Shown here: positions 1 through 56,650 of the stretch, in pieces
Numbering within the stretch: the first letter of the stretch is position 1
How the letters are laid out: each line of letters starts with the position of its first letter
Source: Azolla caroliniana
Taxonomy: Eukaryota > Plantae > Polypodiophyta
Assembly: GCA_043228905.1 (NCBI GenBank)
Contig: JBHGNT010000006.1
Span: 1,612,001-1,676,000 of the forward strand
DNA: 64,000 nucleotides
Direction of reading: 5' to 3'
The notes under the pieces: generated by a model
What the model saw: only the letters and a program-made list of their open reading frames with translations
Told to the model about the DNA's origin: nothing
Database searches by the model: none
Made by a program: the position numbers and the translations under genes

Positions 1-2683
1 TATTGAAGGTGGGATGTGCTACATTCATCAACCAATTTGTTACATGGGTCCAATCTAAAGTGTGTGAACAAATAAGTTTATAATGGGAGTTATTTAAAGG
101 TCGAGACTTTCTTGGTCATGAGTTAATTCATCTATTATACGAGTGTTTCTTGGCACCATAAGGTCAACGTGCTTTTACGTTAGTGGGAAAATACTTTTAC
201 AATATTTTACAATGTGAGTAACATAAACACGCATAGAGACCAATAAGTATATCATTGAAGGAAGGTAATGTTATAATGATAGGCAACATGTCAACAATAG
301 AGCACAATTGCATGTGACCATATACATGTATATATTATCTACAAGCTAATCATGATCTCCGTTAACAACAACATGTATAGCTAAAGGGGTCACTGATGAT
401 GTTGTTTCGTAAAATTTGGACATTATCAAATTTGCCCAATTCTTGAAAGCTATGTTTCCCAATGTCCTTTGGTCAATGTAGCCTTCACACAGAAACAATG
501 TCAACAAAAAATATATAAAGAGATAGATATAGTTGAGTTGGTAAGGTTTTCCGATGGAGATCAGAAGGTCATGTGTTCAACCCTCCACATTCCAAAGTGG
601 CTTCTAGTAATATGTATGGTGTGAAAAATGACATTTGTCAAAGGGCACTAAGCTCTACAAACATATGACTTTGAATCATGTTGAACTTGTGAAGGTTCAC
701 ACCACTTGCAAGAGGAGAAGTGGGTTGCCTACTACATGTAAGGGGCAAAACACTAAAAGAAGTTTTTAATCCAAGGCAAGAATTTAATTCTATATGATTG
801 TTTTCATAAGCATTCACATAAAAACAATATTTACACTTTACTATCATCAGATTTTTTTTTTGTTGCCTTTCTTAGCCTGTGTGCATGTAAATAGGGTCAT
901 TTTTTATGTTTTGTTCTTCTTGTGTCAAGTTAATTGAAATGAAAGGGATGAGCTCCTACTGGTCATGGATTTGCCATGCAGGATTGTGCATGGGTATGTT
1001 TTGGGCCATGGACATTGGATACTCCTTGGATATGGCATATGTACATTATCTCGCAACCCCTCACTTTAATTGTGCTTAAATAGCTAGGATTTCTTATAAG
1101 GGATTGTAGTAAACCAACTAATCAAATAAGCCCATTTTGTCCTAAAGCTATGGACCTCAATACTTTCGAAAAAAAATTAAATTTTTTTAATGAGCCTTAT
1201 TTTGATGCGGAGCTACAACTTGTTTTCATTTTTACGGTTTTCTTTCTACTAGTGTAGTGAAAATATATTTGGAGATAGTTGATAGTGGTTGCCTTCTTTA
1301 GTAGATAGCTTGTACATAAAAAAAAGGAAGCTCACCAAACTACAAGGAGCACAAAAACCTCACCAATAGGTACTTTAACATGTTCGTGAATGTCTAAGGA
1401 GCACAAACAACTTGCCAACAAAACTCATAAAATTGTTCTCTCATGTGAAATAAGGTTAATATTTAATCTCTAATTCACATCGTTCAAACACTAACACACA
1501 CATGCTTGCAATTACATACGTATATGTGTGTGCATGTTTATAATGGCGAAGGTATTCAAATGCCAATAGTTACCTACATATACATATGTAATTCCATATA
1601 GTGAGTTGTAAGCATCTCTAAGAGCTTGTGACCTTGGAGCTTGGGTACATACGTGAATTTCAGTTTAGATAGACACAATGGATATTTCCATGTGGATAAC
1701 TACTATAAATCCTTCATTGGCATAACCACTTCACAAAAAAGATGTCTGTTTTGAAGAATATGTTGTTTATTGTGATTCAACTATACATAAACCAATTCAC
1801 ATAGACTAAAAGAAGATGATTCCAATTTTGCCATAAATATATGTTGGAATAACCGTTGGAGTTTTGAATTGTGCGTATTCCAACACAAAAGAAGACATTG
1901 ATATGTTCTTCTTCCATTGATTATATATTCTAATGAGATGTTCTAACTTTTCCATTTTCGTTTACGCCCCAATAGAATGACAATATGTGTTCTCAAATAG
2001 GTAAATGGCAAGGTTCACACATTATTCAATCTTATGATAAAACATAAATTTTCTCCAATGACAATCAACGAGAATATATAGGTATTGACAATAAAAATCT
2101 TCAACAAAGATCATACAAGTTACCTTATGAATGTATTCGATATGTCCATCTACAAAGACAATAAATTATTTGGTAATATGTCCTACCAAAAAAAATATGG
2201 CAAGGTTTTACATGCTCAAATTCTTTGCTATTCTCTAAGTTATAATGTAGAAGCTTGTACGTTTTGAGAAAAACAGTAATGTTTCCATCCAAGACTAAAG
2301 GCAGTATAGACATGACTAGTTGTAATTAAGCTTTGCTCATTGTTTAATGTGCCCAAGTTTATGCCCTACATCCTTTCATTTAACAATGTAGCCAGTATTG
2401 TCCACATTAATCAATCATTCCAATGAAAACACAATTCCCGACTAGTAGACTTAGGCCTTGTAGGCTTCACAAATTGCATAGTACGACATTATGATCTAAC
2501 ATATGAGAAAATGTTTCGGATCATATATCAACAAACCCAATTATTCAACAAACAAGGGAGCTAGGTGTTGTGAAAGGCCATACTTCTATTCAACAATTGT
2601 TTATGAGGCCATGTCAGTTGGAAGTTATGGATGTGATTGCATATAACGACGCTTGACGTTATACGTCATATAAACATGGGATG

Positions 2684-3095: not shown

Positions 3096-3561
3096 ACCAC
3101 GGCTGAGCACACTCTCTCACTCTCACTCAGATCATCAACTCGACGTTATTACATAAATACCCTATCTCAAGTGTTGTGTGTGTTGGGGGGGGGGGGGGGG
3201 GGGGGGGCAGGTGAGATGGCCATTGGCATGGGTGCCCAAATTTCTACCATCACCATTTTAGGTCACCGTATTCATGAATCATCATGCATATGATGATGTC
3301 TTCCCCGACTCGATTCAATGGAATGTAGAGCAAGCAGAAACAAAAAAAAGGAAGAAAACACTCTGGGTTCTTCTTATTCATATGACACAATACACACATA
3401 AAAGCACAGGTAGAAAGCCTGAAAATCCATCCATCATGGTAGCAATGAAATCGGGTGACTGATGATCCCCTCCTCATCAGGAAGGAACAAATCGGGAGAC
3501 AGAAGAAGAAGATGATGATGATGATGATGATGCTGATGAAGAAGAAAGAGATGGATCAATG

Positions 3562-4749
3562 TCAGTGCTTGAGGAGTTGAAGGGAGGCCAGCAGGAAAGG
3601 GCCGACCCCTTTTGCGTCGTTGGTGACGACGGCCTCGCTCAGATAGTACTCGTAGGTACCATTGCGGTACGGCGTGCCGCCCAGGCCCCCCACTGAGACG
3701 GTACGGTTGAAATTGATGCCCCCATCCGCCCGTGACTCCACGAACTGCGTCTTCAAACCCTCAAAGCCCCGCTCGTAGACCGCGCGGTACTCCGATTTGG
3801 ACAGGTACCCTTCCCTCACACCCTTTGCGAACCCATACACGAACATGGCGGATGCAGAAGATTCCAGATAGTTCCCTGCACGCCCACCTTGATCCAAAAC
3901 CTCCCACCACACGCCAGTGGCTGGATCTTGCACCTTGGCCACCGCCACCGCTAGCCGCCTTAGGATTGCCTCGAGATCCGCCCTCTTGCCATGGTCTTTC
4001 GGGAAGAAATCGAGGGTATCGACCAGTGCCATGAAGTACCAACCAACCGATCTCCCCCAGAAGCTCGGTGAATGGCCAGTGACCGGATCGGCCCATGCCT
4101 GTTGCCGTGACTCATCATATCCATGGTAAAGCAGCCCGGTTACGGGATCCCGGGCCCTTTTCTCCATCAACACGAATTGCAATGCAATGTCATCGAAGGA
4201 GGGCTTAGGTTCATCTTCAAAGAGGAGGGTATACTCGGCATAGAACGGCTCGGCCATGAAGAGACCATCGAGCCACATCTGGTATGGGTAGACTTGCTTG
4301 TGCCAGAAGCCTCCCTCGGACGTCCGCGGTTGCTTTTGCAACTGGTCTCGGAGAAGCTTGGCCGCGGCCCTGTACTTGGGCAATCCAGTCCTCTTCCACA
4401 AGAAGAGCAAAATCGTGCCCGACCTTATGTTGTCGAGATTGTAGTCAGATTCCTTGTAGGTCGGGATGGTGCCATTGTCTGCGACGTATGTGTCGGTTCG
4501 ATTCTTTATGTAATCGAGATACTTGGGTTCTCGGGTCTTTCGCCACACTTGTTGGATTCCATACAGGAGGACGCCGCGCTCATAGTTCCATTGATCCTTG
4601 CCGGGACCTGTCGAGTTCCAGATATTAAGGGCGGTGTCGGCCATCCGAACATATAACGGCTTCTTGCTGTTACTTCCAGCCTCCGCCATGCATATCCAGG
4701 GAAGCAAGCACAAGAAGGCAGAGACGACCACTATCCGTGAGTTTCTCAT
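3562..4749 (-). CDS. Secreted glycoside hydrolase family 105 (unsaturated rhamnogalacturonyl hydrolase, YteR-like), intronless
   Basis: Uninterrupted ORF. The track start at 4767 is TTG; the first ATG is at 4749 (395 aa). Hydrophobic signal peptide (IVVVSAFLCLLPWICMAEA). GH105 motifs NLDNI, EGGFWHK, QMWLDGLFM (catalytic Asp), LLYHGYDES, FWGRSVGW, YLESSASAM, and C-terminal GVGPFLLA. Confidence 0.92.
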   Translation of the reverse strand: MRNSRIVVVSAFLCLLPWICMAEAGSNSKKPLYVRMADTALNIWNSTGPGKDQWNYERGVLLYGIQQVWRKTREPKYLDYIKNRTDTYVADNGTIPTYKESDYNLDNIRSGTILLFLWKRTGLPKYRAAAKLLRDQLQKQPRTSEGGFWHKQVYPYQMWLDGLFMAEPFYAEYTLLFEDEPKPSFDDIALQFVLMEKRARDPVTGLLYHGYDESRQQAWADPVTGHSPSFWGRSVGWYFMALVDTLDFFPKDHGKRADLEAILRRLAVAVAKVQDPATGVWWEVLDQGGRAGNYLESSASAMFVYGFAKGVREGYLSKSEYRAVYERGFEGLKTQFVESRADGGINFNRTVSVGGLGGTPYRNGTYEYYLSEAVVTNDAKGVGPFLLASLQLLKH

Positions 4750-5493
4750 TGTAGATCCAATCGACAACCCCGATGTTTTAGAGTTTATTGTGTTTTATCT
4801 GGCTTGAATTGTGGTACAACTTTGTACAAAACAAAAGCAAAAGCAAAATACCAACCACCAGCAACAAGATTTGCCGGATGGGGAATGCTGGTTCTAGTAC
4901 TCTTGGAGATCTAGAAGCTTATTATTCAGACTAATCTGTTCACCTCTCATGGGGGTGTGTGTGTGTGTGTGTATGCATAAAGAGAAAGAATTTCAGAGCA
5001 AAAGAAAAGAGAGAGGTGAGATGAGATGACCAGTTCTCTTGGAAATGCTTGGTTTTTAAAAGAAAAGTCAACCAGCAATTTAGCACAAATTTCGTTAGAT
5101 CTCTTCGTTGTTAAATTTAATCCTCTTTTCCACATCTTGGTCTCTGATGCTTTATGTCTCTCACAACAAAAATCCATTTTCTCCTAAGCAACCCGAAATG
5201 CCTCATATTTTTTCAATTGTAAGAGTTGGAGTTTGAAATATATGTCTTTTTCGTTTAATAATGCTATTAAATATTTGAGGGAAGAACATGAGTCTTCATA
5301 GTTGCATTACGTATTTGATTGGTGGGATACTGTAGCATTATATATTTGTGGGATGTGGATCTTATTAGTTATCACATATAATACTATTATATGTTTGTGA
5401 GACGTGGCTCTTCATAGTTACTAGGATCAATCTTAGCCACCATATGTGTGTGTGAGCAAGATGAAAATACAAGTTACCCACTAAGTTATAACC

Positions 5494-5498
<5 letters not shown>

Positions 5499-5537
<39 letters not shown>
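5499..5537. repeat. (GA)n microsatellite, 5' flank of L1-like LINE
   Basis: Read directly from the sequence. Confidence 0.95.
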
Positions 5538-5541
<4 letters not shown>

Positions 5542-8086
5542 AAAGGAGGAGGTGGAATATGTATTTTCACATCTTGGAATTGATAAAAGCCCGGGTTGGG
5601 ATGACATTACGAATGAGTTTTTTAAAGCCTTTGTACCATAACTCAAAGCTCCTCTAACAATGATATTCCAAGAAATGTGGAGTTCTAGTAAAATGTCTGA
5701 TTCATGGAAAGTTGGTCTTGTTAAACTACCAAAAGTTGCATCTCCTATATCTTTTGCCCAATGGAGACCAATATCATTAATGGGTGGGATGTATAAGATT
5801 TTTGCCAAAGTAATTGCAAATAGACTTCAAAAGGTGTTGTCGTTTGTGGTCCACCCAATGCAATATGGGTTTATTGAGGGAAGGGACATCTTGCATAATA
5901 TTTTGAATGTGTAAATGGCAGTAGATTATGCAAAGGAATCCAAACAAATTATAATGATACAACTCGACATCGAGAAGGCATATGATCATGTAAGTTGGTC
6001 TTTTATTCCTCAACCTATGTCTCATATGGGTTTTGGGGAAAGGATGTCTCGAATATCATTGTTGGTGGGATTAGGTGCAGTGTCACACATTATGTTAAAT
6101 GGTGGAGTTACTAAGGCAATACTATTGAAAAGATCACTTAGACAAGGATGCCCATTGAGTCCATTATTATTTGCAATTGCAACACACCCGATTTTGGTGA
6201 AGATGCATGAGTTGGCAACTCCTCGAGAAATAGTTGGATTAGCTCTACCATCAGGGAAACAATTGATTGCCCAAGCATTGGCTAATGATTCGTTTTTATT
6301 TCTCAAACCAACACCTGATAACATAGCCAAAGCCATGGAGGTGTGGAATGTGTTCGCATTGGCATTACAATTACATATAAATATGCAGAAGTCGATGCTC
6401 ATTAGAAGCACTAAGAGTGATTTGGTTGATCTTGGATGGAGTGGCCAAATAATAAATCAAGGGAATGTGTGTAGACACTTAGTTTACCCTATTGGTGTTG
6501 ATGTCTCATCATCGCAAAGTTTGAATTGGATATAAGGAACCATTTTGGACAAATTTATGTATTGGAAGTCTCAAGCACGGTCGTTTAGTACTTGTCTCAA
6601 AGTGGTGCAAGCTATAATGATTCCAATTATTTATTATTTTTTGTCATTGTTACCGTGGACAAAGAAATCACTTGATCATTTAGCTCGTTCACTTAAATAT
6701 ACACTATGGAAGAAAGAAACAAACCTTGGTATGAATTAGGGATCATGGAACAATATTTGTACCCCAAAACGGTTAGGGCATGTTGCTTTACTAAATTTAG
6801 AAGATCATATCGTGGCTCGAAGATTCAATCTTTTGAAAGGTATGTGCATAGGTACCCAACCTTGGGTAGAAATAATTACTTATTTTGTCGAAAAGGTTGG
6901 TACTTACTATGGGAAAACGAGAATTACAGCTTTGTGGTGGCATGTGGTTAATAGTACCCGGCAGTTTAAATGTTCAGAATCTATTATGGTTCAACAATTG
7001 GTGCTTTCTTGGCAGCGGTGTTTGAATTTGTTTAATTGGAGGCCTCCTGAGTGCAGAAAAGATATAAATTCATTGGCAGTAGAGGTGTTGGCAGCTTCAA
7101 GGATATTACACTATGATGGAAATGAAAGTATAAATTCACAATTCAATCGAATGGCAAGGCTAGGCTTGGTAAATGTGGAAGATGTTATTTTAGAGTCATG
7201 TAGGAAAATGATGGCCTTTCCAACAATCAGAAATAAGTTTCATATACCACGTGGATATGGGTATATTTGGCAATCAATATTGGCATGCCTAGATTAGTTT
7301 TCCCAATTCCAGAGTTGGTGGTCGAGGAACCATGGAAAGATTGGTCATTTGGTAATGGGAAATCGATTGATGGGGTGCACACTAATGATGTGTACCATAA
7401 GTTGGTTGATGATAGAGCTTGGTTAGCAAATAAGGTTTTGGATACATGGCGCATTACTCAAAATGTGGAGTGGTGGCGTAGAGTTTTAGTTGTAGGGTGG
7501 CAATCTCATCTTCCATTTCGTGCAAAGGTGTTTCTTTGGCGTGCCATAGTTGGTGGGTTGCCTTTGGCGATGGCCTTAAAACGAAGACATATTTCAAATG
7601 GGACATGTTTTTTTCTGTACGGTGGTTGAAGAAGATGCCAGACATAGGTTCATTACATGTTCGGTTGCTAAAGGCATTTGGGTGATTATGTCACAAATTT
7701 GGGCATCGATATCAAGAAATATTTTGTCACCTTATAAATGGGTTTTTATGGATGAGGATAAAGTTATGCCCACACCATCGTATACGGTTGTTTTTTATTA
7801 CCTTAGATATTGGGAAATGTGGTTCAATTGGACCATGAGAAATGGGTTCTTGTTTGATGGACTTCATGGGGTAACACAACAACTCCGTAGGATGAAAGGG
7901 AAATTGATTTGGCAATTTTCACAACTATGTTGTATGGGGACGTTGTCCCAACAGAAGATAGACTTATGTCATCTAGTTTTACAACACTTGAGAGGGTTTC
8001 CCTTGCACTATCACTATTTATGAAGTTGTGACGATAACAAGGGTTGTATTATTATCTTATTTTAATAACAAACATTGATTTACGAA
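5538..8086 (+). mobile_element. 5'-truncated, decayed L1/Tx1-like LINE (RT + zf-RVT)
   Basis: ORF fragments carry KSPGWD, WRPISL, QYGFIEGR, LDIEKAYD, LRQGCPLSPLLF and a degenerate (F)ADD motif (LAND). Zinc finger region FRAKVFLWR...CFFCTVVEEDARHRFITC. Several in-frame stops and frameshifts. Ends TTTACGAAA followed by (GA)n at 8087-8098. Confidence 0.9.
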
Positions 8087-8614
8087 AGAGAGAGAGAGTA
8101 ATGAACTTATTTTAAGCAAAACTTGTGTAGATGATTAGTACCCTGACATTATGTTCTCATACAAAATGGAATGTGAGCAAACTCATATGGAAGCAATAGT
8201 GTAGATTGCAAACAAGGAAATAGGCTCTATCATGTATAGGGATTTTAACTTGCTTGTTTGGACTATATAGCCTTGGATCTCTCTCAAGTCACGATATATT
8301 ACGTTCCAAAAGTGCCTCATCCTATTGACAATGAAGCATGAACCTATTGAGGTGCCATGAAGTAACGTGTAATACACAACCCAATTATTGGAGTTATTGA
8401 CAATTAATCTTGTATGGATAGGAAGGCTCTCCAAGACACTTATTAGAAAGTATTTTCTCAAAGCACCATATTATTCATGAAAAACAAAGCATGATTGGTA
8501 AACTCATTAATGTCTTCTAGTTGTGTGAACTTGTGAACAATATATTCCAACGCATATAGACTAGCACCATTTGAGCTAATCTCAATGGGTATATGGCATA
8601 CCATCATTTCATTT

Positions 8615-8618
<4 letters not shown>

Positions 8619-8674
<56 letters not shown>

Positions 8675-8930
8675 CCCAAATTTCCCTTATGAGACCAAAT
8701 CAGACATATCATCTTGTATGTGCCTCCTTCCTAGGAGGGTTACTACTCTCAGTGAAAATAATGCACTTATGTGCCCGTCAAACAAGTCATTATATTTCTC
8801 ACAAATTATTGTATGAGCATGTGATAAGTACATGATATTCATTCTCCATTAGGTTTTCATTTCATACATTGCATATCTTCATATTTGGGCGATGTGCCAT
8901 GATCATACCTCAACATTGTGTGTGTTATAG
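8619..8930 (-). mobile_element. 3' end fragment of a second LINE family with (CT)n tail
   Basis: The minus strand reads KICNV*NENLMENEYHVLITC (CCHC-finger remnant), then ATTTGGTCTCATAAGGGAAATTTGGGCTC, then the (CT)n tract at 8619-8671. Confidence 0.6.
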
Positions 8931-36400: not shown

Positions 36401-39071
36401 GTGAAATGTAAAGAGATGTATCAGCAATTTCATACAAATGTAAGCCTTACTGAGATTACACAACAAACAACTCACAAGCAACTGCAAACCCATGTTTCAA
36501 AAAGGTATGCTTGTGAAGAGGCACAATATTGAAATTTATGCCTTCATGAGCAAAGACTTATATAACACCAAACAACTCACAAGCAAACTGCAACCCATGT
36601 GTGTTAAAAAAGGTGTGCTTATGAGGGACAATATTGCAATGAATGATTTTTCAAAGAACCTGACCTCAATCAAGGATCCACAACTATGGCATTGTTATGC
36701 AAAATGCGTGTATAATGCCCCCCACTTAACTTCCCATATCATAACCATCAAAGTCTCACCCTACCATCTCTACCTTCTTGATTTCATACAAGGTTGAGAA
36801 GGCTATCCAGAGCTGTCAACATGGATGATTGGTCTGACCACACAGAACCATCAGACTGTCATGATTGGCCACACATTCACCAAACTTTATGGAATGGTGC
36901 TTGAAGCGGAACTCATTATTTATGTTGAGGTCGAAGAGATATGAATCTCAAGTAAAATGAGATTGAAGAGAGGATTCTGTACCACTGACCACATCCTCAC
37001 ATTACTTCACTTGGTGAACCAAGCAAAGCCACAAAAGAAGTGATTGTGTGGATGTTTTGTAGATTTCCACAAAGCCTTCGATACTGTCCCAATGGAAAGT
37101 CTCCTACAAATTCTGCACTCAAAATTCCCTCTAACAGGATGTGAATGATATATGCAATATATACTCAAGTGTCGAGATGAGTTAGGTGGCTGAGGTGGCT
37201 ATTAGTGGCAATCACAAGCACCAGTGGTGTGAAGAAGGATATCCACTCTCCGCCACCTTGAAGCGGTACATCAACAAGGTAGCAGACTACATCACAAGTC
37301 CACACGGCAAGGAAACTCACGCAACTGTCTACATTTTTCTTTATGTTAATAACATAATCTTGGTGTCTAAATCTCATGCTACTCTACAACATCATCTCAA
37401 TGCCCTAGATAGTTTTGCCATGAAAAAGGGCTCTCACAGTAAACATAGGAAGGACTAAAGCCGTTTATTTTCCACACGTCTGTGCTGACTTGCAGACAAG
37501 CTAAGCTAACTTCACCCTATCAAGAGGACCAAGTTGAAGCAGCAAATTCGTGTGTATATCTAGGAATCACATTTACTAGCACAAAGGGACGCTTCTCGAT
37601 GACCCAGGCTGTCAAGGATCAATCTCACATTAAAGGCCTCTTTCAAGGTCTGCTGATTTTCTATGCTCTGATGTAGGACATGTCCATAGTGTTCCAAACA
37701 AAGTGTATATTTGATACCACTTGTTTGGTTTACAACTTTGGTGAGAATGTGATGAAAACTACAGTGGGGATATTGGCTGTGGCATAAGTAATTTTGCAAG
37801 TCTTGCATGCTAGAAGGTGCTTATTCTCAGGTTTTTGTTTAGAGTATTCAATAATTTCAGCTTTCCAGAAGTGAACATGAAAAAACTGTCTTGGCCGCCT
37901 GTCAGCTATCAAATGCTCTGCATATTCAACTCCGTCATATGAGCTGCCTTTCAGTTCGATACTAACTCATAGAGAGAAAATCAACTAAAAAATTGAAAGC
38001 TATAGCTAGTTAATATTCCTTAGTTTATAAAAAACTGTTGCAAATTTGAGGCTATCAATGCATGGCAGAATATGAATGCTTCAATTATGGAGTTTACAGT
38101 TGCTGGAGGATGTATTGCAAATCTCTTTATTGCTCATGTGTTTTTAAGGTTTGGGGATTCTGGGGGTTGATTATTGACGGGATTGTGGATATCAGCTACC
38201 ACTATGTTTTATATATTGGAGACAAATCTATTGCTAGTTGCAGAAATTAGGGTTTGATCCAGGGTTTCTAAAACTAGAGCTTTGGCAGGTTCTCAGTGTA
38301 TCAATTATCTGCTTTGTACTTGAGATTCTTGCTTAGAGCCTGTAAAATCACGCAGAGCTATTGTAATTACTCATTTTATTTACTGATTAAATATAGGAAA
38401 TCCTTCTTTAATATCCATTGCTCATATATGGCAGGAAATCAACGCAATACTTGGGGACCGTCTCTCAACTGAGGATGAGGAAGCAGTACTTGCAGAGTTC
38501 GAGGAACTAGAGATGAAGGTCCTTTTTCCATATATTTTGAATTATACCTCATTATCTTACTCCATTTCTTTAGTTTACGACTCCTGAATGTTTATACTCT
38601 CAGATGGAGCTTGAAGCCATGCCAGAACCACCCTTGTCCAAAGTAGAGTTTGAAGAAGTAGAAGCCGAAAAAGCTAAAGCTAAACCTACTGTTCTAGAAA
38701 AGCAACCAATTGCAGAGCTTGCAGAGAGGACTATATCGCATCCCAGAGGTGAAGATATTTCGGAAAATCAGAATCATCATAAAGAGGAAAATCAGAATTT
38801 TAATACACCAAGTGTTACCATAGGTGGAGAGGGTCATATAGATATATCAGATGCTCTGGATCATGATGTAGATGAAATTTTGAATCTACCAAGTCCTCCC
38901 AGAGGTACTATTGAAGAAGACTCTAAAAGCAATGAGAAGACGGAAATTTCACCAAACCGAGGTTCGATTCACTGTCTAAGATATCTTATAGCTTACTGAA
39001 ATAATGCTTAAAACAAACATTAACACTAACCTTAAGGCTATATTGCAGGAAAGGAGCTCTTGCCTGCTTAA
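33475..39071 (+). CDS. VPS20: ESCRT-III subunit VPS20 (CHMP6, Snf7 family), 6 exons
   Basis: Exons 33475-33579, 34203-34355, 34659-34811, 38435-38518, 38604-38961, 39049-39071. Myristoylation-type N-terminus [29 protein letters not shown], plus [25 protein letters not shown] and C-terminal ELLPA*. Confidence 0.93.
35544..35678 (+). mobile_element. Very short 5'-truncated LINE 3' tail (hairpin + CT-rich tail)
   Basis: Strongly similar to 36225-36330 (GTTCTCAAAG.CGAGACAA...AAGATGTAATCTCTTGTTTGGTCTTATAGG...CTCTTAAAAGATG). Flanked by an imperfect direct repeat CCCTCACTTCC..(T)CTCTCCA at 35521 and 35679. Confidence 0.65.
35720..36340 (+). mobile_element. LINE 3' fragment (CCHC finger, 3' UTR, CT-rich tail) in VPS20 intron 3
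   Basis: [39 protein letters not shown], followed by a 3' UTR with an AGGCCATTTTGGCCT hairpin and a CT/CTTT tail. Confidence 0.8.
36780..37960 (+). mobile_element. Decayed LINE reverse transcriptase fragment
   Basis: Broken frames give [18 protein letters not shown]-like [22 protein letters not shown] and CVYLGITF. Confidence 0.7.
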
Positions 39072-39949: not shown

Positions 39950-42900
39950 AACTGAAATCAGTCTTTACATGTTTCTTGTTAAATTCATGATTTTTGTTTT
40001 TCATTTGTTCATGCATATAGAAAGAATCTTGACTTTCATAGAACGGATGCATTGAAATCCTAGTTATAACTGGTGTTTTTTGCGATAATTAAATTTTTGT
40101 ATTGAACAAGCATGAAACGAAGTCGTTGAAAGTTGACATTGGATGGAGCATTCATTGTAAAGTTCATGAAATGACCTTTGTAGTAATCTTTCGTGGAAGT
40201 GGCTTGGTGTGAGCCAAGTCATTTGGGTACAGAGCTACCATAGATTTGGTACAATGCATTGTTCCATTCATCATTTGGGAGAGGTGTAAAACATCAAAAG
40301 GGTGACAAGTTCTCAATGTTGAGGCTAGTATTGTCGAAGCACTTCATCACTTATGAGGCTAGGAGAATCATCATCCTTATGTGTCTTCTTTTGTTGCCAT
40401 TGGCTTTCATGCTTGAAACTCATGTCTAATTCGTTGAGGTGGCACGGTTTAACTTTGGTTCATGAAGTTTATTATCTAGAATAAGGCTTCTACCATCATG
40501 GACAATGCCACTAATTCATCATAGATGATTTTGCGCATGATGACATAAAGACTAGTGGATTGCTCCATTTTTGTCTGCATGTACATAGGAAGTTTAGAGC
40601 CATATGTTTGCACCATACATGAGAGACATGGCTGTCTAAATAGGCATACTTTGGTATACACGCAACCATTTGTGGGAAAAATCATCCGTTGTGGTTCTCT
40701 TTTGTATACAAATCCTTTATTGTTGGTGTACGCAAAGGGCTTAGGACGTGATAATAACAATATATAAAAGTTGAAATGATGAATTGATCGATAAAGGTGA
40801 CCCATGCTTGGATAGGTTATATGTTTTTTAATTTGCATGAGAACATGGCATGCATCACAATTTTACATAAAGTTGGTGCCTTATCCTGAGAGGAGTGATT
40901 GCTAAGCTAGCAAGATGTATGCACACTTTGTGATAAGATCATCTCATGATTGTGGTAAAACCTTTACGGAATGGCTTCTCATCTTAACATGCATATGTAA
41001 ACAAACAAACAATTAGATGAAGACATCTTTATGATTGTGTGTAAAACAAATAAAAGAAGACAAATGTTTTTCTTTTAAATCAATAAAGCAACAATAGAAT
41101 GTCTTTCCTTGTAGTCGACTTTCTTCCATAATTACTTTTGATGTAACAAAATGATCTATCATGGAGTGTTTTGGTCTAAAAAATTGCTTGCCCAAGTGCT
41201 CATTTGTTTTGACTTTCAGTCTATGCACTTACGTTTGCTCCATGATAGTGCTATACAATTTAGGAATAGTTAAGCTCACCATGATTTTACCATACTTCAA
41301 TATTTATTATTATCTTCAACCTTAAAAATGGTCTTAATCCAAATCATGAACCAATCACTTGGTAAACCCTCTTTAATAGCTTGATCTATGATGTCATGAT
41401 CCGATGATGAATACTTGGCATTGCCCATTTTAAGAATTGTCTTGTAATGAGAGTTACATCAATGCTTTCCCATTAGCCATCTTCGTTGTTCCCTTATTGG
41501 CATCTTCAAGATCAATGCATCATGTATTCCAAGGAGTTTCAACGTTCTTGCCATAAGAGCCACTCCCTCATGCATTTATAGGCTTTGTACATATTCTAGC
41601 ATCTCTTGATCGTGAATTCACCTTTGGTATCTTCCTTCTAACCATTAAGTTGTCTCCATGCTAGGCTTGGTTAGAGCTTAAACAACCTTTTCTTTTTCCT
41701 TTCTTGCATTTGGAAGTATTGCCTTTTCTTTCTCCTTGCTACCTTTTTATATTAATGCCATGCCATGACCCGTTCACTTCCCCCTTTTGCAAACATATAT
41801 AGTTTGAGATATATACACGACTTTAGCACTTCGTTCACCTAGTCTATTGTGTCAAAACTTACTTACTTTATATTGCAAACCAACACTAGGGGAAGGTTTG
41901 ATCCCTCCCCTCTATATCAATGACATGGTTCACCTCGTCAAGAGGTTACTTCCCTTTCCCATCTCTTTTTTGTTAGGAATTGCCGTGAATGTAGGAGACC
42001 ATTCCTTATCAAACCAAGAATTACATGGGAAACTACCTCTTTTATGTCCACCAACACACATTCGATATTGTTGATATCCTACCTCAAGGATGACATCTTT
42101 CAAGCGTTGCCAAATTTCTTTAACATCATTACTTGAAGAGAGTTTTGACAAATGGTTCCCAACTTCTTTTGCATATATCATAACTTTATTGTAACAAGGT
42201 CGAATGATGTATCTTCTTTCCTCTTTCACCGTACCACATTTATTGATAAAGTGTGAGAGTGTAAGGTATGAGGGCAAATGGTTTGAGTCTAGGGATAGAG
42301 CAACAATTTTAAATGCATTCACCATGGATAGATCACATGCCTTCATATATACATATTCGACTACACTTCCTCCACTTGAGGCTTGTAAACATATAAGTAC
42401 ATTTGTCAAAGGAAAACCATTTATGCCATTTTAGACAATCAAGTTTTTGTAGTCAAGCATATGCACAATAATTCTTTCATAATCCATCATAATACAATCC
42501 TTTCATGTAATAGACAAGGATCCACTTATTTTTTTCCGTGATATCCATATAATGGTATTTTCCAACACTATCATTAAATTCTCCCATAATCAACACTTTA
42601 CCAAACTTCTCAAAAACAAGTATGTCTTCACATAAATATGTGAAAGAATCGTCACGTTCCAACCCAAATGTACTATAGTAGTTTGACTCTTTATGAGGAA
42701 TGTCGATTCGACCATGTGGAGATTCTCTTAGCCCAAATTAATCTCTAACCATAGGTATCACTTATAATCATTATACTTACACAATCTTGTATAATGATCT
42801 AATCTCTCATGGTAAATATCCCTGCATGTCCAATATTCCTTTGAGGGTTGAGGCCATATCGATTTTATAAGGTAGCCATCTATTTTAGGTATGCGTTTTT

Positions 42901-55100: not shown

Positions 55101-56587
55101 CTGTATTGCAATTTATATTATCCATTAATTATCTTAAATGAAAGGGAAGACACTTAATGGTCTCTTTTGGAACCAAAGGGTGCTTGCATTGCATTTGATG
55201 CTGAAGGCTGGCTAGAACAAGTTGCCTCAATATGCAATTATCATAACCTTCCTCCACCAACAGATGAAGAGAAGTTACCTGTTGGAAATGGAAGTAATCC
55301 GGTAATCATCATTTGTATTTATTCGTAGATTTTAAAAACGAAGTCATTTTCCTTATTTTTAAATTGCACTTCAGGTGTTTCTTGTTGGACGCAATGCAAT
55401 CAAATTATATCTTGATGAAACAAGCCAAGATAGAGTTATCGATGGTTTATCATCCGAGGTATAACTTGTTTTTCTCATAATTCTAGTTTTGTAATGTAAA
55501 GAAATAGACCTAAGGTTTGATTCTTGTATGCACTGGAGTATGAGTTTCGTTGTGTGTGTGACAAATAAGCGAGGAGAGAGAGAGAGAGAGAGAGGGAGGG
55601 AGACAAATACCAAAATGTCAACATTTCATATTCCAAAAGGTTATACCTTTATTTGGGATAAGTTGCAAGAAATACTATCTTCATATGAGCCAATTCCTGA
55701 GTTAGATGGCGGATCTCAAGAGCTTGATTGAAGGTTTGTTGGAAATAAGAGATTGACTATGATCAAATGTTGCTTATCACAAGTTGATTGACAAACATAA
55801 GTTGTTGGAAGAAAGGGTTATAAAGATATGGGGTTTTCGTAATCCCATTACTTGGTGGTTTCATGTGATCAAAGCAAGTTGCTGTTCTCGATTGATGCTA
55901 CGAGCTAAGGTATTTATTTGGAGAGTTATGGTTGCAGCTTTACCATTGGGGAATGCATTAAAAAAAAGAAACATTACTAAAGGATTGTGTTTCTTTTGTT
56001 TGGTGGAATTGGAACATAGTAGGCATTGAGTTCTTTTATGCCCGATTGCAAGGATGGTTTGGAGGTGTATCAGTTTAGTGGGGATGTCTCTAATTGGACT
56101 AAGCCTATCTCCCCTAGTTGGGTTTTTGCACATATGGAGAACAAGGAACCAATGCCTCATTTCCAAATTATTTTTAAGTGCTTGAGGTATTGGGGGTTAT
56201 GGTTCAATTGGAATATGCGGAATGCCTTCACTTTTGATTCGCAAGTTGGGGTGAGAAAATATGTTGTAAAGTTAAAAGAACTTCTTTTGAGGCAGTTGAC
56301 AGTGCTAGAGAAGTCACGAAATCTCAACCATGAAGAGAGAGAGCTATGCAAGGTCACATATCATCATATTCGCCATTTGAATTGTTGTGTAGGGTGGCAT
56401 TGAGTTTGGAGTCGTGGGAGTATTTAGCTCCCTATAAAGGTTCTATACTTTGTAGTAAACTTATCGTGGAGGTGTTTTTTTTCCTTTCGTAGTGAAAGCC
56501 ATTTTTTACGGAAAAGGAGAGAGAGAGAGAGAGAGAGAAGAAAGATATATTAACGTCTTTTAAGAGGCCAAAATGGCCTATAAGACC

Positions 56588-56650
<63 letters not shown>

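What the first reader, a model, noticed from the sequence alone, without database searches (positions are those of the whole stretch)
5499..8098. L1/Tx1-like LINE family that appears to target (GA)n microsatellites
Seen: two divergent copies of one family (5538-8086 and 55604-56516) are 5'-truncated at different points. Both have (GA)n on both sides in the same orientation, and both end in TTTACG(G)AAA with no long poly(A). A GA tail alone cannot explain GA tracts at independent 5' truncation points. Known: microsatellite-specific non-LTR elements exist in animals (e.g. Tx1-clade Kibi on TC repeats, Waldo on AC). Inference: a plant LINE with a sequence-specific endonuclease for (GA)n/(TC)n, which I do not know to be well described in plants.
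Basis: partly seen in the sequence, partly recalled or inferred. Interest (0 to 1): 0.75.

Follow-up and report, generated by a model that had tools for sequence, protein, structure and literature searches.

The report
Plant LINEs that target GA microsatellites
A lineage of jumping genes in a plant (likely a fern) inserts into GA-repeat microsatellites over 100 times more often than chance and always facing the same way, likely because its cutting enzyme prefers the TC strand, a targeting habit we found described only in animals.

Summary
The GA association is real and holds genome-wide. The two window copies are not one family but two related L1-group LINE families (A, B; about 63% nt identity). 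In samples taken in genomic order, 17 of 35 truncated B copies and 7 of 20 truncated A copies have at least 12 nt of (GA)n at the 5' junction. Background is 0.35%; the TC orientation gives 0; another L1-group family of the same genome gives 0 of 17. Paralogous empty sites already hold GA. Target-site duplications of 15-18 bp mostly start in or beside GA, and the tails there are A-rich. A ~200-bp tRNA-like SINE shows the same signature (17 of 27). Targeting is a preference, not strict. The lineage groups with fern and liverwort LINEs, apart from seed-plant L1; Tx1 membership could not be tested. An unrelated LINE uses the same microsatellite in the opposite orientation (6 of 11). Endonuclease specificity is inferred, not assayed. 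Ten paper searches found no plant precedent; Repbase was not searchable. The scan's notes showed no earlier report of this.

The parts
5499..5537 (+). (GA)19.5 tract at the 5' junction of the family A copy; likely target plus duplicated target
5538..8084 (+). 5'-truncated, decayed family A LINE (RT, zf-RVT, short 3' UTR ending TTTACG); several stops and frameshifts
   Evidence: Pfam RVT_1 and zf-RVT; 91.4% to positions 3215-5753 of full-length reference L069
8085..8098 (+). AAA tail and (GA)5.5 at the 3' junction
55574..55603 (+). imperfect (GA)15 tract at the 5' junction of the family B copy
55604..55617 (+). 14 nt not aligned to the family B reference (untemplated or diverged)
   Evidence: alignment starts at offset 15
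55618..56510 (+). 5'-truncated family B LINE (ORF2 C-terminus and 3' UTR ending TTTACG)
   Evidence: 90.0% to positions 4682-5582 of full-length reference L089
56511..56538 (+). GAAAAG tail and (GA)11 at the 3' junction
56539..56647 (.). 54-nt piece of a recurring repeat followed by (GA)27; likely the 3' end of another element on the minus strand stacked in the same tract
   Evidence: the same piece follows family B tails at L100, L106, L119, L133; not assigned to a family by blast

Best explanation
Families A and B belong to a lineage of plant (likely fern) L1-group LINEs that insert preferentially into existing (GA)n tracts, with GA on the element's sense strand, likely because their APE endonuclease nicks the (TC)n strand. 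SHOWN: enrichment, strand asymmetry, GA already present at empty paralogous sites, 15-18-bp duplications, A-rich tails. INFERRED: ORF2p nicks the pyrimidine strand near 5'-TCT/CTC-3'. The freed 3'-T end primes reverse transcription on a short poly(A) after TTTACG, with slippage giving tails such as AAAAG or AAG. The second nick falls about 15-18 nt downstream, so GA is duplicated on both sides wherever the cDNA stops. Because each insertion regenerates the target, elements stack in tandem. Full-length RNAs likely also carry a few GA units at their own 5' end. The same ORF2p likely mobilises a ~200-bp tRNA-like SINE that ends in the same TTACG. Specificity is relaxed: short GAGA or GAA runs and occasional A-rich sites are used, more often by family A.
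For: Truncated copies with a GA run of 12 nt or more at the 5' junction: B 17 of 35, A 7 of 20 (8 nt or more: 19 of 35, 10 of 20). TC orientation: 0 of 35 and 0 of 20 at 12 nt. Background: 102 of 28,784 windows, 0.35%. Binomial p = 8e-33 and 5e-13. The GA-positive copies stop at 17 (B) and 7 (A) different positions. Control L1-group family C: 0 of 17 5' junctions (15 independent) and 0 of 28 3' junctions; Fisher p = 0.0013. Of the 16 B misses at 8 nt, 7 have more element sequence directly upstream and so are not target junctions. Empty paralogues: L068 holds one uninterrupted (GA)21 between flanks 96-99% identical to those of truncated copy L097; L127 and L013 hold one copy of the GA-rich sequence duplicated at L131; L017 and L071 match L134; L132 and L153 match L095 and L053; L066 and L087 match L029. 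Of 9 informative LINE duplications, 7 begin in or right after a GA run, and the tails before them are A-rich, not (GA)n. SINE: 17 of 27 (12 nt) and 22 of 27 (8 nt) at the 5' end, TC 0; duplications of 13-15 nt that start with AGAG at L262, L266, L283, L286. Further families of the lineage in other samples' contigs also end in TT(T)AC(G/C)+A+(GA)n. The endonuclease keeps the catalytic motifs and folds like L1-EN. Its specificity loop is TFQSxQYxxTWS or a close variant throughout the lineage and differs in the sister clades.
Against: No biochemistry. About half of truncated copies fail the strict criterion, and two duplications (L026, L069) are at A-rich, non-GA sites. An unrelated LINE favours the same microsatellite from the other strand, which hints that the tracts are favourable for reasons beyond one enzyme. 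Two lineage members in other contigs (L191, L207) show no GA at their 3' ends, one contig each. In L069 and L084 some GA lies inside the duplication, so the 5' GA of full-length copies is partly element-borne and is not counted as proof. Empty sites are paralogues in repeats; no orthologous empty allele was obtained. Inside pure GA the cut position cannot be read. The specificity loop is poorly modelled (pLDDT below 50 at 190-195).
Confidence: 0.72

Rival explanations
1. The endonuclease is only loosely purine/pyrimidine-selective, and targeting comes from priming. Read-through RNAs ending in (GA)n pair with nicked (TC)n ends, so only those nicks become insertions, as proposed for RTE elements with microsatellite tails.
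For: 9 of 40 B census copies have 0-1 A between TTTACG and GA. Full-length copies carry their own 5' GA (L069, L084), so flanking GA can enter the RNA. The model is in PMC6007223, section 18. It fits the unrelated (TATC)n-tailed LINE well.
Against: Where a unique duplication defines the tail, the tail is A-rich, yet the cut is still in or beside GA (L013, L084, L099, L131, L152). The SINE has its own A-rich tail and the same target.
Confidence: 0.15
2. A host factor or DNA structure (GAGA-binding proteins, open chromatin, triplex DNA; recalled, not from a call) draws the integration complex to GA tracts.
For: Two unrelated LINE lineages and a SINE converge on the same tracts.
Against: Insertions sit within the tract and are strictly oriented (TC 0 of 55 at 12 nt). 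Family C of the same L1 group shows no GA.
Confidence: 0.08
3. Insertion is random. The GA tracts are made during or after integration (tail decay, polymerase slippage), or copies in GA tracts are merely retained longer.
For: Filled sites often have longer GA than their empty paralogues (L134 against L017 and L071). LINE tails are a known source of microsatellites (PMC3812793 passages).
Against: Empty paralogues already contain GA. 5' junctions at 24 different truncation points carry GA. The control family of similar divergence has none. Copies 98-99% identical to the reference already show it.
Confidence: 0.04
4. Assembly artefact: contigs were joined falsely through GA tracts.
For: Microsatellites are common misjoin points (general knowledge).
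Against: Left and right flanks are contiguous in empty paralogues. Unique duplications flank copies. Independent short-read contigs show the same ends.
Confidence: 0.01

Closest known systems
Kibi and Koshi (Tx1 clade, teleost fish) and the crocodilian (TTCC)n/(TTTC)n Tx1 families (PMC4494074, passages and section 15 read; PMC3812793, passages)
   Same: APE-type non-LTR elements of the wider L1 group that insert into pyrimidine/purine microsatellites; Kibi uses TC repeats, the same duplex as here.
   Different: Described from animals. Here the host is a plant and the nearest named relatives are fern and liverwort LINEs. The sense strand is flanked by GA; Kibi is named for TC, which by the usual convention (recalled, not checked) would be the opposite orientation. 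The preference here is relaxed, copy number is high, and a SINE shares the target.
Waldo, Mino (AC/ACAY) and Dong (TAA) microsatellite-targeting elements (PMC3812793, passage)
   Same: Insertion into an existing microsatellite, attributed to the endonuclease.
   Different: Other targets and animal hosts; other clades (recalled).
Human L1 ORF2p / L1-EN (PDB 1vyb, 8sp7, 2v0r; PMC1950540 passages)
   Same: Same APE fold (TM-score 0.71) and catalytic motifs; two ORFs, poly(A) priming, short duplications, 5' truncations and 5' inversions (L115, L116).
   Different: L1 nicks at T-tract/A junctions. The betaB6-betaB5 loop here has 10 residues between the T and S anchors against 9 in L1, with a different sequence.
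Plant RTE LINEs and Au-like SINEs (PMC6007223, abstract and section 18 read)
   Same: A plant LINE-SINE pair that shares a 3' end and an insertion signature.
   Different: Their signature is a T-stretch and a T-start duplication linked to a microsatellite tail. It is not insertion into genomic microsatellites, and the clade differs.
Tx1-Mar with SINEU (PMC4494074, passages)
   Same: A shared target preference links a SINE to its LINE.
   Different: The target is a Mariner transposon, in crocodilians.

Membership tests
APE-type non-LTR retrotransposon, L1 group | ORF2 with N-terminal APE endonuclease, RT and C-terminal zinc motif | tested here: met
   Full-length A and B read; Pfam Exo_endo_phos, RVT_1 and zf-RVT on close relatives P0002 and P0006; best PDB hits are L1 ORF2p
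APE-type non-LTR retrotransposon, L1 group | ORF1 before ORF2 with a zinc knuckle | tested here: met
   zf-CCHC E = 6e-5 above cut-off; DUF4283 weak, E = 0.083, below cut-off
APE-type non-LTR retrotransposon, L1 group | A-rich 3' tail, variable 5' truncation, short target-site duplication | tested here: met
Seed-plant L1 clade | RT groups with angiosperm and gymnosperm L1 | tested here: not met
   Seed-plant sequences form their own clade (support 1.0); A and B lie in a fern/liverwort clade (0.966). FastTree, 168 sequences, 400 columns, midpoint root; the node joining the two has only 0.25
Tx1 clade (Kibi, Koshi) | RT groups with Tx1L, Kibi, Koshi, Keno | not testable with these tools
   No named Tx1 protein was returned; 10 members of the other large clade carried no informative name. 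Atlas look-alikes of the endonuclease were labelled LINE-1 and TX1 equally (0.96 each)
Microsatellite-specific non-LTR elements | Same repeat at both junctions of independently truncated copies, one orientation | tested here: met
Microsatellite-specific non-LTR elements | Target present before insertion | tested here: met
   paralogous empty sites; no orthologous empty allele (uninformative)
Microsatellite-specific non-LTR elements | Strict specificity (nearly all copies in the target) | tested here: not met
   35-54% of truncated copies on raw counts; 19 of 28 for B after removing 7 internal rearrangements; non-GA duplications at L026 and L069
Microsatellite-specific non-LTR elements | Endonuclease cleaves the target specifically in vitro | not testable with these tools
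   needs a nicking assay

The most novel reading that the evidence does not exclude
Ferns evolved microsatellite targeting independently of animal Tx1 and R1 elements. A whole L1-group lineage (at least five families, with relatives in Adiantum) has an endonuclease that reads (TC)n through a conserved loop and carries a SINE to the same sites. A second, unrelated LINE converged on the same repeat from the opposite strand. The genome's more than 20,000 long GA tracts are thus a self-renewing landing pad, and the source of a native plant sequence-directed integrase.
Probability: 0.55. Interest if true: 0.75.

Novelty: new variant of a known kind. Interest (0 to 1): 0.63.

Why it matters
The papers I read place target-specific APE retrotransposons in the Tx1 and R1 clades (PMC4640811 passage), with animal examples, and call the mechanism of microsatellite targeting poorly understood (PMC3812793 passage). 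This genome offers a plant case with young copies (97-99% identical), a strict and a relaxed family, a non-targeting relative as control, a partner SINE and a convergent second LINE. That makes the endonuclease-versus-priming question directly testable by loop swaps. It also bears on why GA tracts are so dense here and on how microsatellite markers become interrupted. A native plant targeting enzyme is relevant to efforts that now use bird R2 proteins in plants (PMC13580325 passage).

Tried and rejected
'One family': rejected. Orthologous empty allele by laying four runs on L125: uninformative. The tool skipped the 88 repeat letters, the flanks are repetitive, and one contig of another organism lacks 818 bp that include the element and more. 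Naming Tx1 relatives: none found. Kojima & Fujiwara 2004 is not held, so Kibi's orientation and strictness were not read at source. One search used wrong coordinates and gave nothing. ARAGORN found no tRNA gene in five SINE loci, so 'tRNA-like' rests on A-box and B-box-like motifs read by eye. The L002 'empty' paralogues (L137, L157) may be independent stackings and are not counted. L129's empty paralogues hold GA, but its left junction has lost about 80 nt, so it stays a miss. Full-length 5' GA (12 of 16 B copies at 12 nt, 15 of 16 at 8 nt) was not used as proof because part of it is element-borne. Paper searches without a plant precedent: (listings and abstract starts only, except the papers cited as read).

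Full report
Observation. The window is G000:C6:1612001-1676000 of a 523-Mb genome in 1503 contigs. Copy 1 (5538-8084) carries broken RT and zf-RVT frames. Copy 2 aligns from 55618 to 56510. They are not one family: blastn finds 71 bp at 72% between them and tblastx 36-47%. Each has its own family, with about 700 first-look candidates at 89-95%. I call them A and B. Their full-length references (L069, 5,753 bp; L089, 5,582 bp) are 63% identical in DNA and 43-49% in ORF2.

Anatomy. Full-length copies have ORF1 (about 450-490 aa, zinc knuckle) and ORF2 (APE-RT-zf-RVT), a short 3' UTR ending TTTACG and an A-run of 0-11 nt. In B the ORF1 stop overlaps the ORF2 start (ATGA); in A the ORF2 start follows in frame after stops. 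No copy that I read in this genome has an unbroken ORF2. Nine full-length B copies are 97.1-98.7% identical over a 2-kb 3' stretch, so B was active recently. The window copies are older (90-91% to their references).

Enrichment test. To avoid choosing by flank I took exact matches to the last 21-24 nt in genomic order. For B there are 180 matches. Of the first 50, 41 were fetched in 40 regions; 7 had been fetched earlier and 2 were not fetched. For A there are 63 matches. Of the first 30, 22 were fetched in 20 regions; the other 8 are the window copy and copies fetched earlier. One copy per region was scored, and L122 had no 5' end inside its region. A perfect GA run of 12 nt or more in a 36-nt window at the 5' junction was found in 17 of 35 truncated B and 7 of 20 truncated A copies (8 nt or more: 19 and 10). 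TC runs: 0 and 0 (8 nt or more: 0 and 1). 3' junctions: 23 of 39 and 8 of 20. Background in the same loci is 102 of 28,784 windows, 0.35%, and 0.34% in the window; p = 8e-33 and 5e-13. The genome has at least 21,988 GA tracts of 20 nt or more, in line with that rate. The best-hit sets give similar figures: truncated B 3 of 7 and 6 of 7, truncated A 5 of 18 and 5 of 13.

Misses. Seven of the 16 B misses have more element sequence directly upstream (deletions, duplications, two 5' inversions), which leaves 19 of 28 true junctions at 8 nt. One of the 10 A misses is of that kind. A few others end in CA within repeats seen at other loci, likely nested elements. Some misses are real non-GA insertions.

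Control. Family C is another L1-group LINE of this genome, about 27% identical to the lineage's ORF2. It has GA of 8 nt or more at 0 of 17 resolved 5' junctions (15 independent) and 0 of 28 3' junctions. The query and its duplicate were left out. Pooled A+B against C: Fisher p = 0.0013 at 12 nt.

Was the GA there first? Blasting flanks against fetched loci found host repeats without the LINE. The clearest is L097 (B, truncated at 331): L068 has the same flanks (98.7% over 75 nt, 96.4% over 111 nt) around one uninterrupted (GA)21. L131's duplicated GA-rich sequence occurs once in L127 and L013. L134, L095, L053, L029 and L013 also have GA-holding empty paralogues. These are paralogues, not alleles; the attempt to get alleles failed.

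Cut site and tail. Nine LINE insertions have duplications with unique bases, 15-18 nt in most cases and 21 in L102. Seven start in or right after a GA run (L013, L084, L099, L102, L131, L151, L152), and two at A-rich sites (L026, L069). The boundary is mostly GAG^AGA on the sense strand, that is TCT/CTC on the nicked strand (inferred). The tails in front of these duplications are A-rich, so the downstream GA comes from the target. In L069 and L084 a few GA units lie inside the duplication at the element's 5' end, so full-length RNAs likely begin in GA.

Partners. A ~200-bp repeat with A-box and B-box-like motifs ends in CTAATTACG plus A (2,220 candidates). In 27 copies (29 scored; two already known beside LINEs dropped; L267 and L275 may be duplicates), 17 have 12 nt or more of GA at the 5' end, 22 have 8 nt or more, and none has TC. 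Its duplications start with AGAG. Elements stack in each other's GA flanks (L119, L101, L089, L091). Contigs from other samples hold at least three more families ending in TT(T)AC(G/C)+A, often followed by GA; two further members (L191, L207) show none.

Relationships. ORF2 relatives are 45-49% identical in Adiantum nelumboides and 24-28% in angiosperms. In an RT tree of 168 sequences (those of 202 with at least 250 aligned residues), A, B and the Adiantum proteins form a clade (0.997). It is sister to Ceratopteris and Adiantum proteins (1.0), inside a clade with Riccia proteins and family C (0.966), and apart from seed-plant L1 (1.0). This suggests a fern host (inference; earlier notes say the same). 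No named Tx1 was available, so Tx1 membership and independent origin are untested. The endonuclease keeps the L1 catalytic motifs and models as an APE fold (pLDDT 74.7; TM-score 0.71 to L1-EN). The loop that sets target choice in L1-EN (PMC1950540 passages) reads TFQSxQYxxTWS or a close variant across the lineage and differs in sister clades.

A complication. An unrelated LINE ('Z'; RT 19.5% identical to B; (TATC)n tail; 2,296 candidates) has (TC)n of 12 nt or more at 6 of 11 resolved 5' junctions and GA at none. It uses the same microsatellite from the other strand. Its tail can pair with the target, so priming may explain Z. It also keeps the host-factor rival alive for A and B.

Literature. 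Ten searches showed no plant LINE that targets microsatellites. Read: passages of PMC4494074 (plus section 15), PMC3812793, PMC5203782, PMC4640811, PMC1950540 and PMC13580325; abstract and section 18 of PMC6007223. No supplements were read; those of PMC4494074 may state target orientation. Subscription papers and Repbase Reports, where such a family could already be listed, were not searchable.

Verdict. A real, strong but relaxed GA-targeting LINE lineage with a partner SINE in a likely fern genome. It works like Kibi; membership of Tx1 is not shown. New variant of a known kind. Interest 0.63.

Noticed in passing
L131, L152:1453-3152, L002:1240-1462, L293-L321: Unrelated young LINE 'Z' with a (TATC)n tail, 99% identity among 3' ends and 2,296 candidates. 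It inserts into the same microsatellite in the opposite orientation: TC at 6 of 11 5' junctions. Its C-terminus resembles RTEX-type elements (recalled, untested).
   Followed up: partly
L138:7562-7762 and L262-L291; a weak fragment at window 521-608: ~200-bp tRNA-like SINE with a forward head and an inverted tRNA-like segment near its 3' end; it shares the TTACG end and the GA target.
   Followed up: partly
window 3562-4794 (-): Uninterrupted 410-aa reading frame for a glycosyl hydrolase family 88 protein (E = 5e-104), 700 bp from copy A; intronless, so possibly of bacterial origin (not tested).
   Followed up: no
L115, L116: Family B copies with 5' inversions, as expected from twin priming.
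   Followed up: no
L040/L086, L049/L092, L122, L128, L029, L066: Several independent A and B insertions fall in the same GA-rich segment of one host repeat, a hotspot.
   Followed up: partly
window 8618-8920: (GA)27 followed by a repeat also found after a family B tail at L047/L090; possibly another element's end on the minus strand.
   Followed up: no
window 36846-37103 and 41070-41395: Decayed RT fragments related to LINE Z by tblastx.
   Followed up: no
runs X3, X4, X9, X10 laid on L125: The 3' end of family B is covered by many contigs in all four runs, which carry four different organism labels, so the family is likely shared by related species.
   Followed up: no
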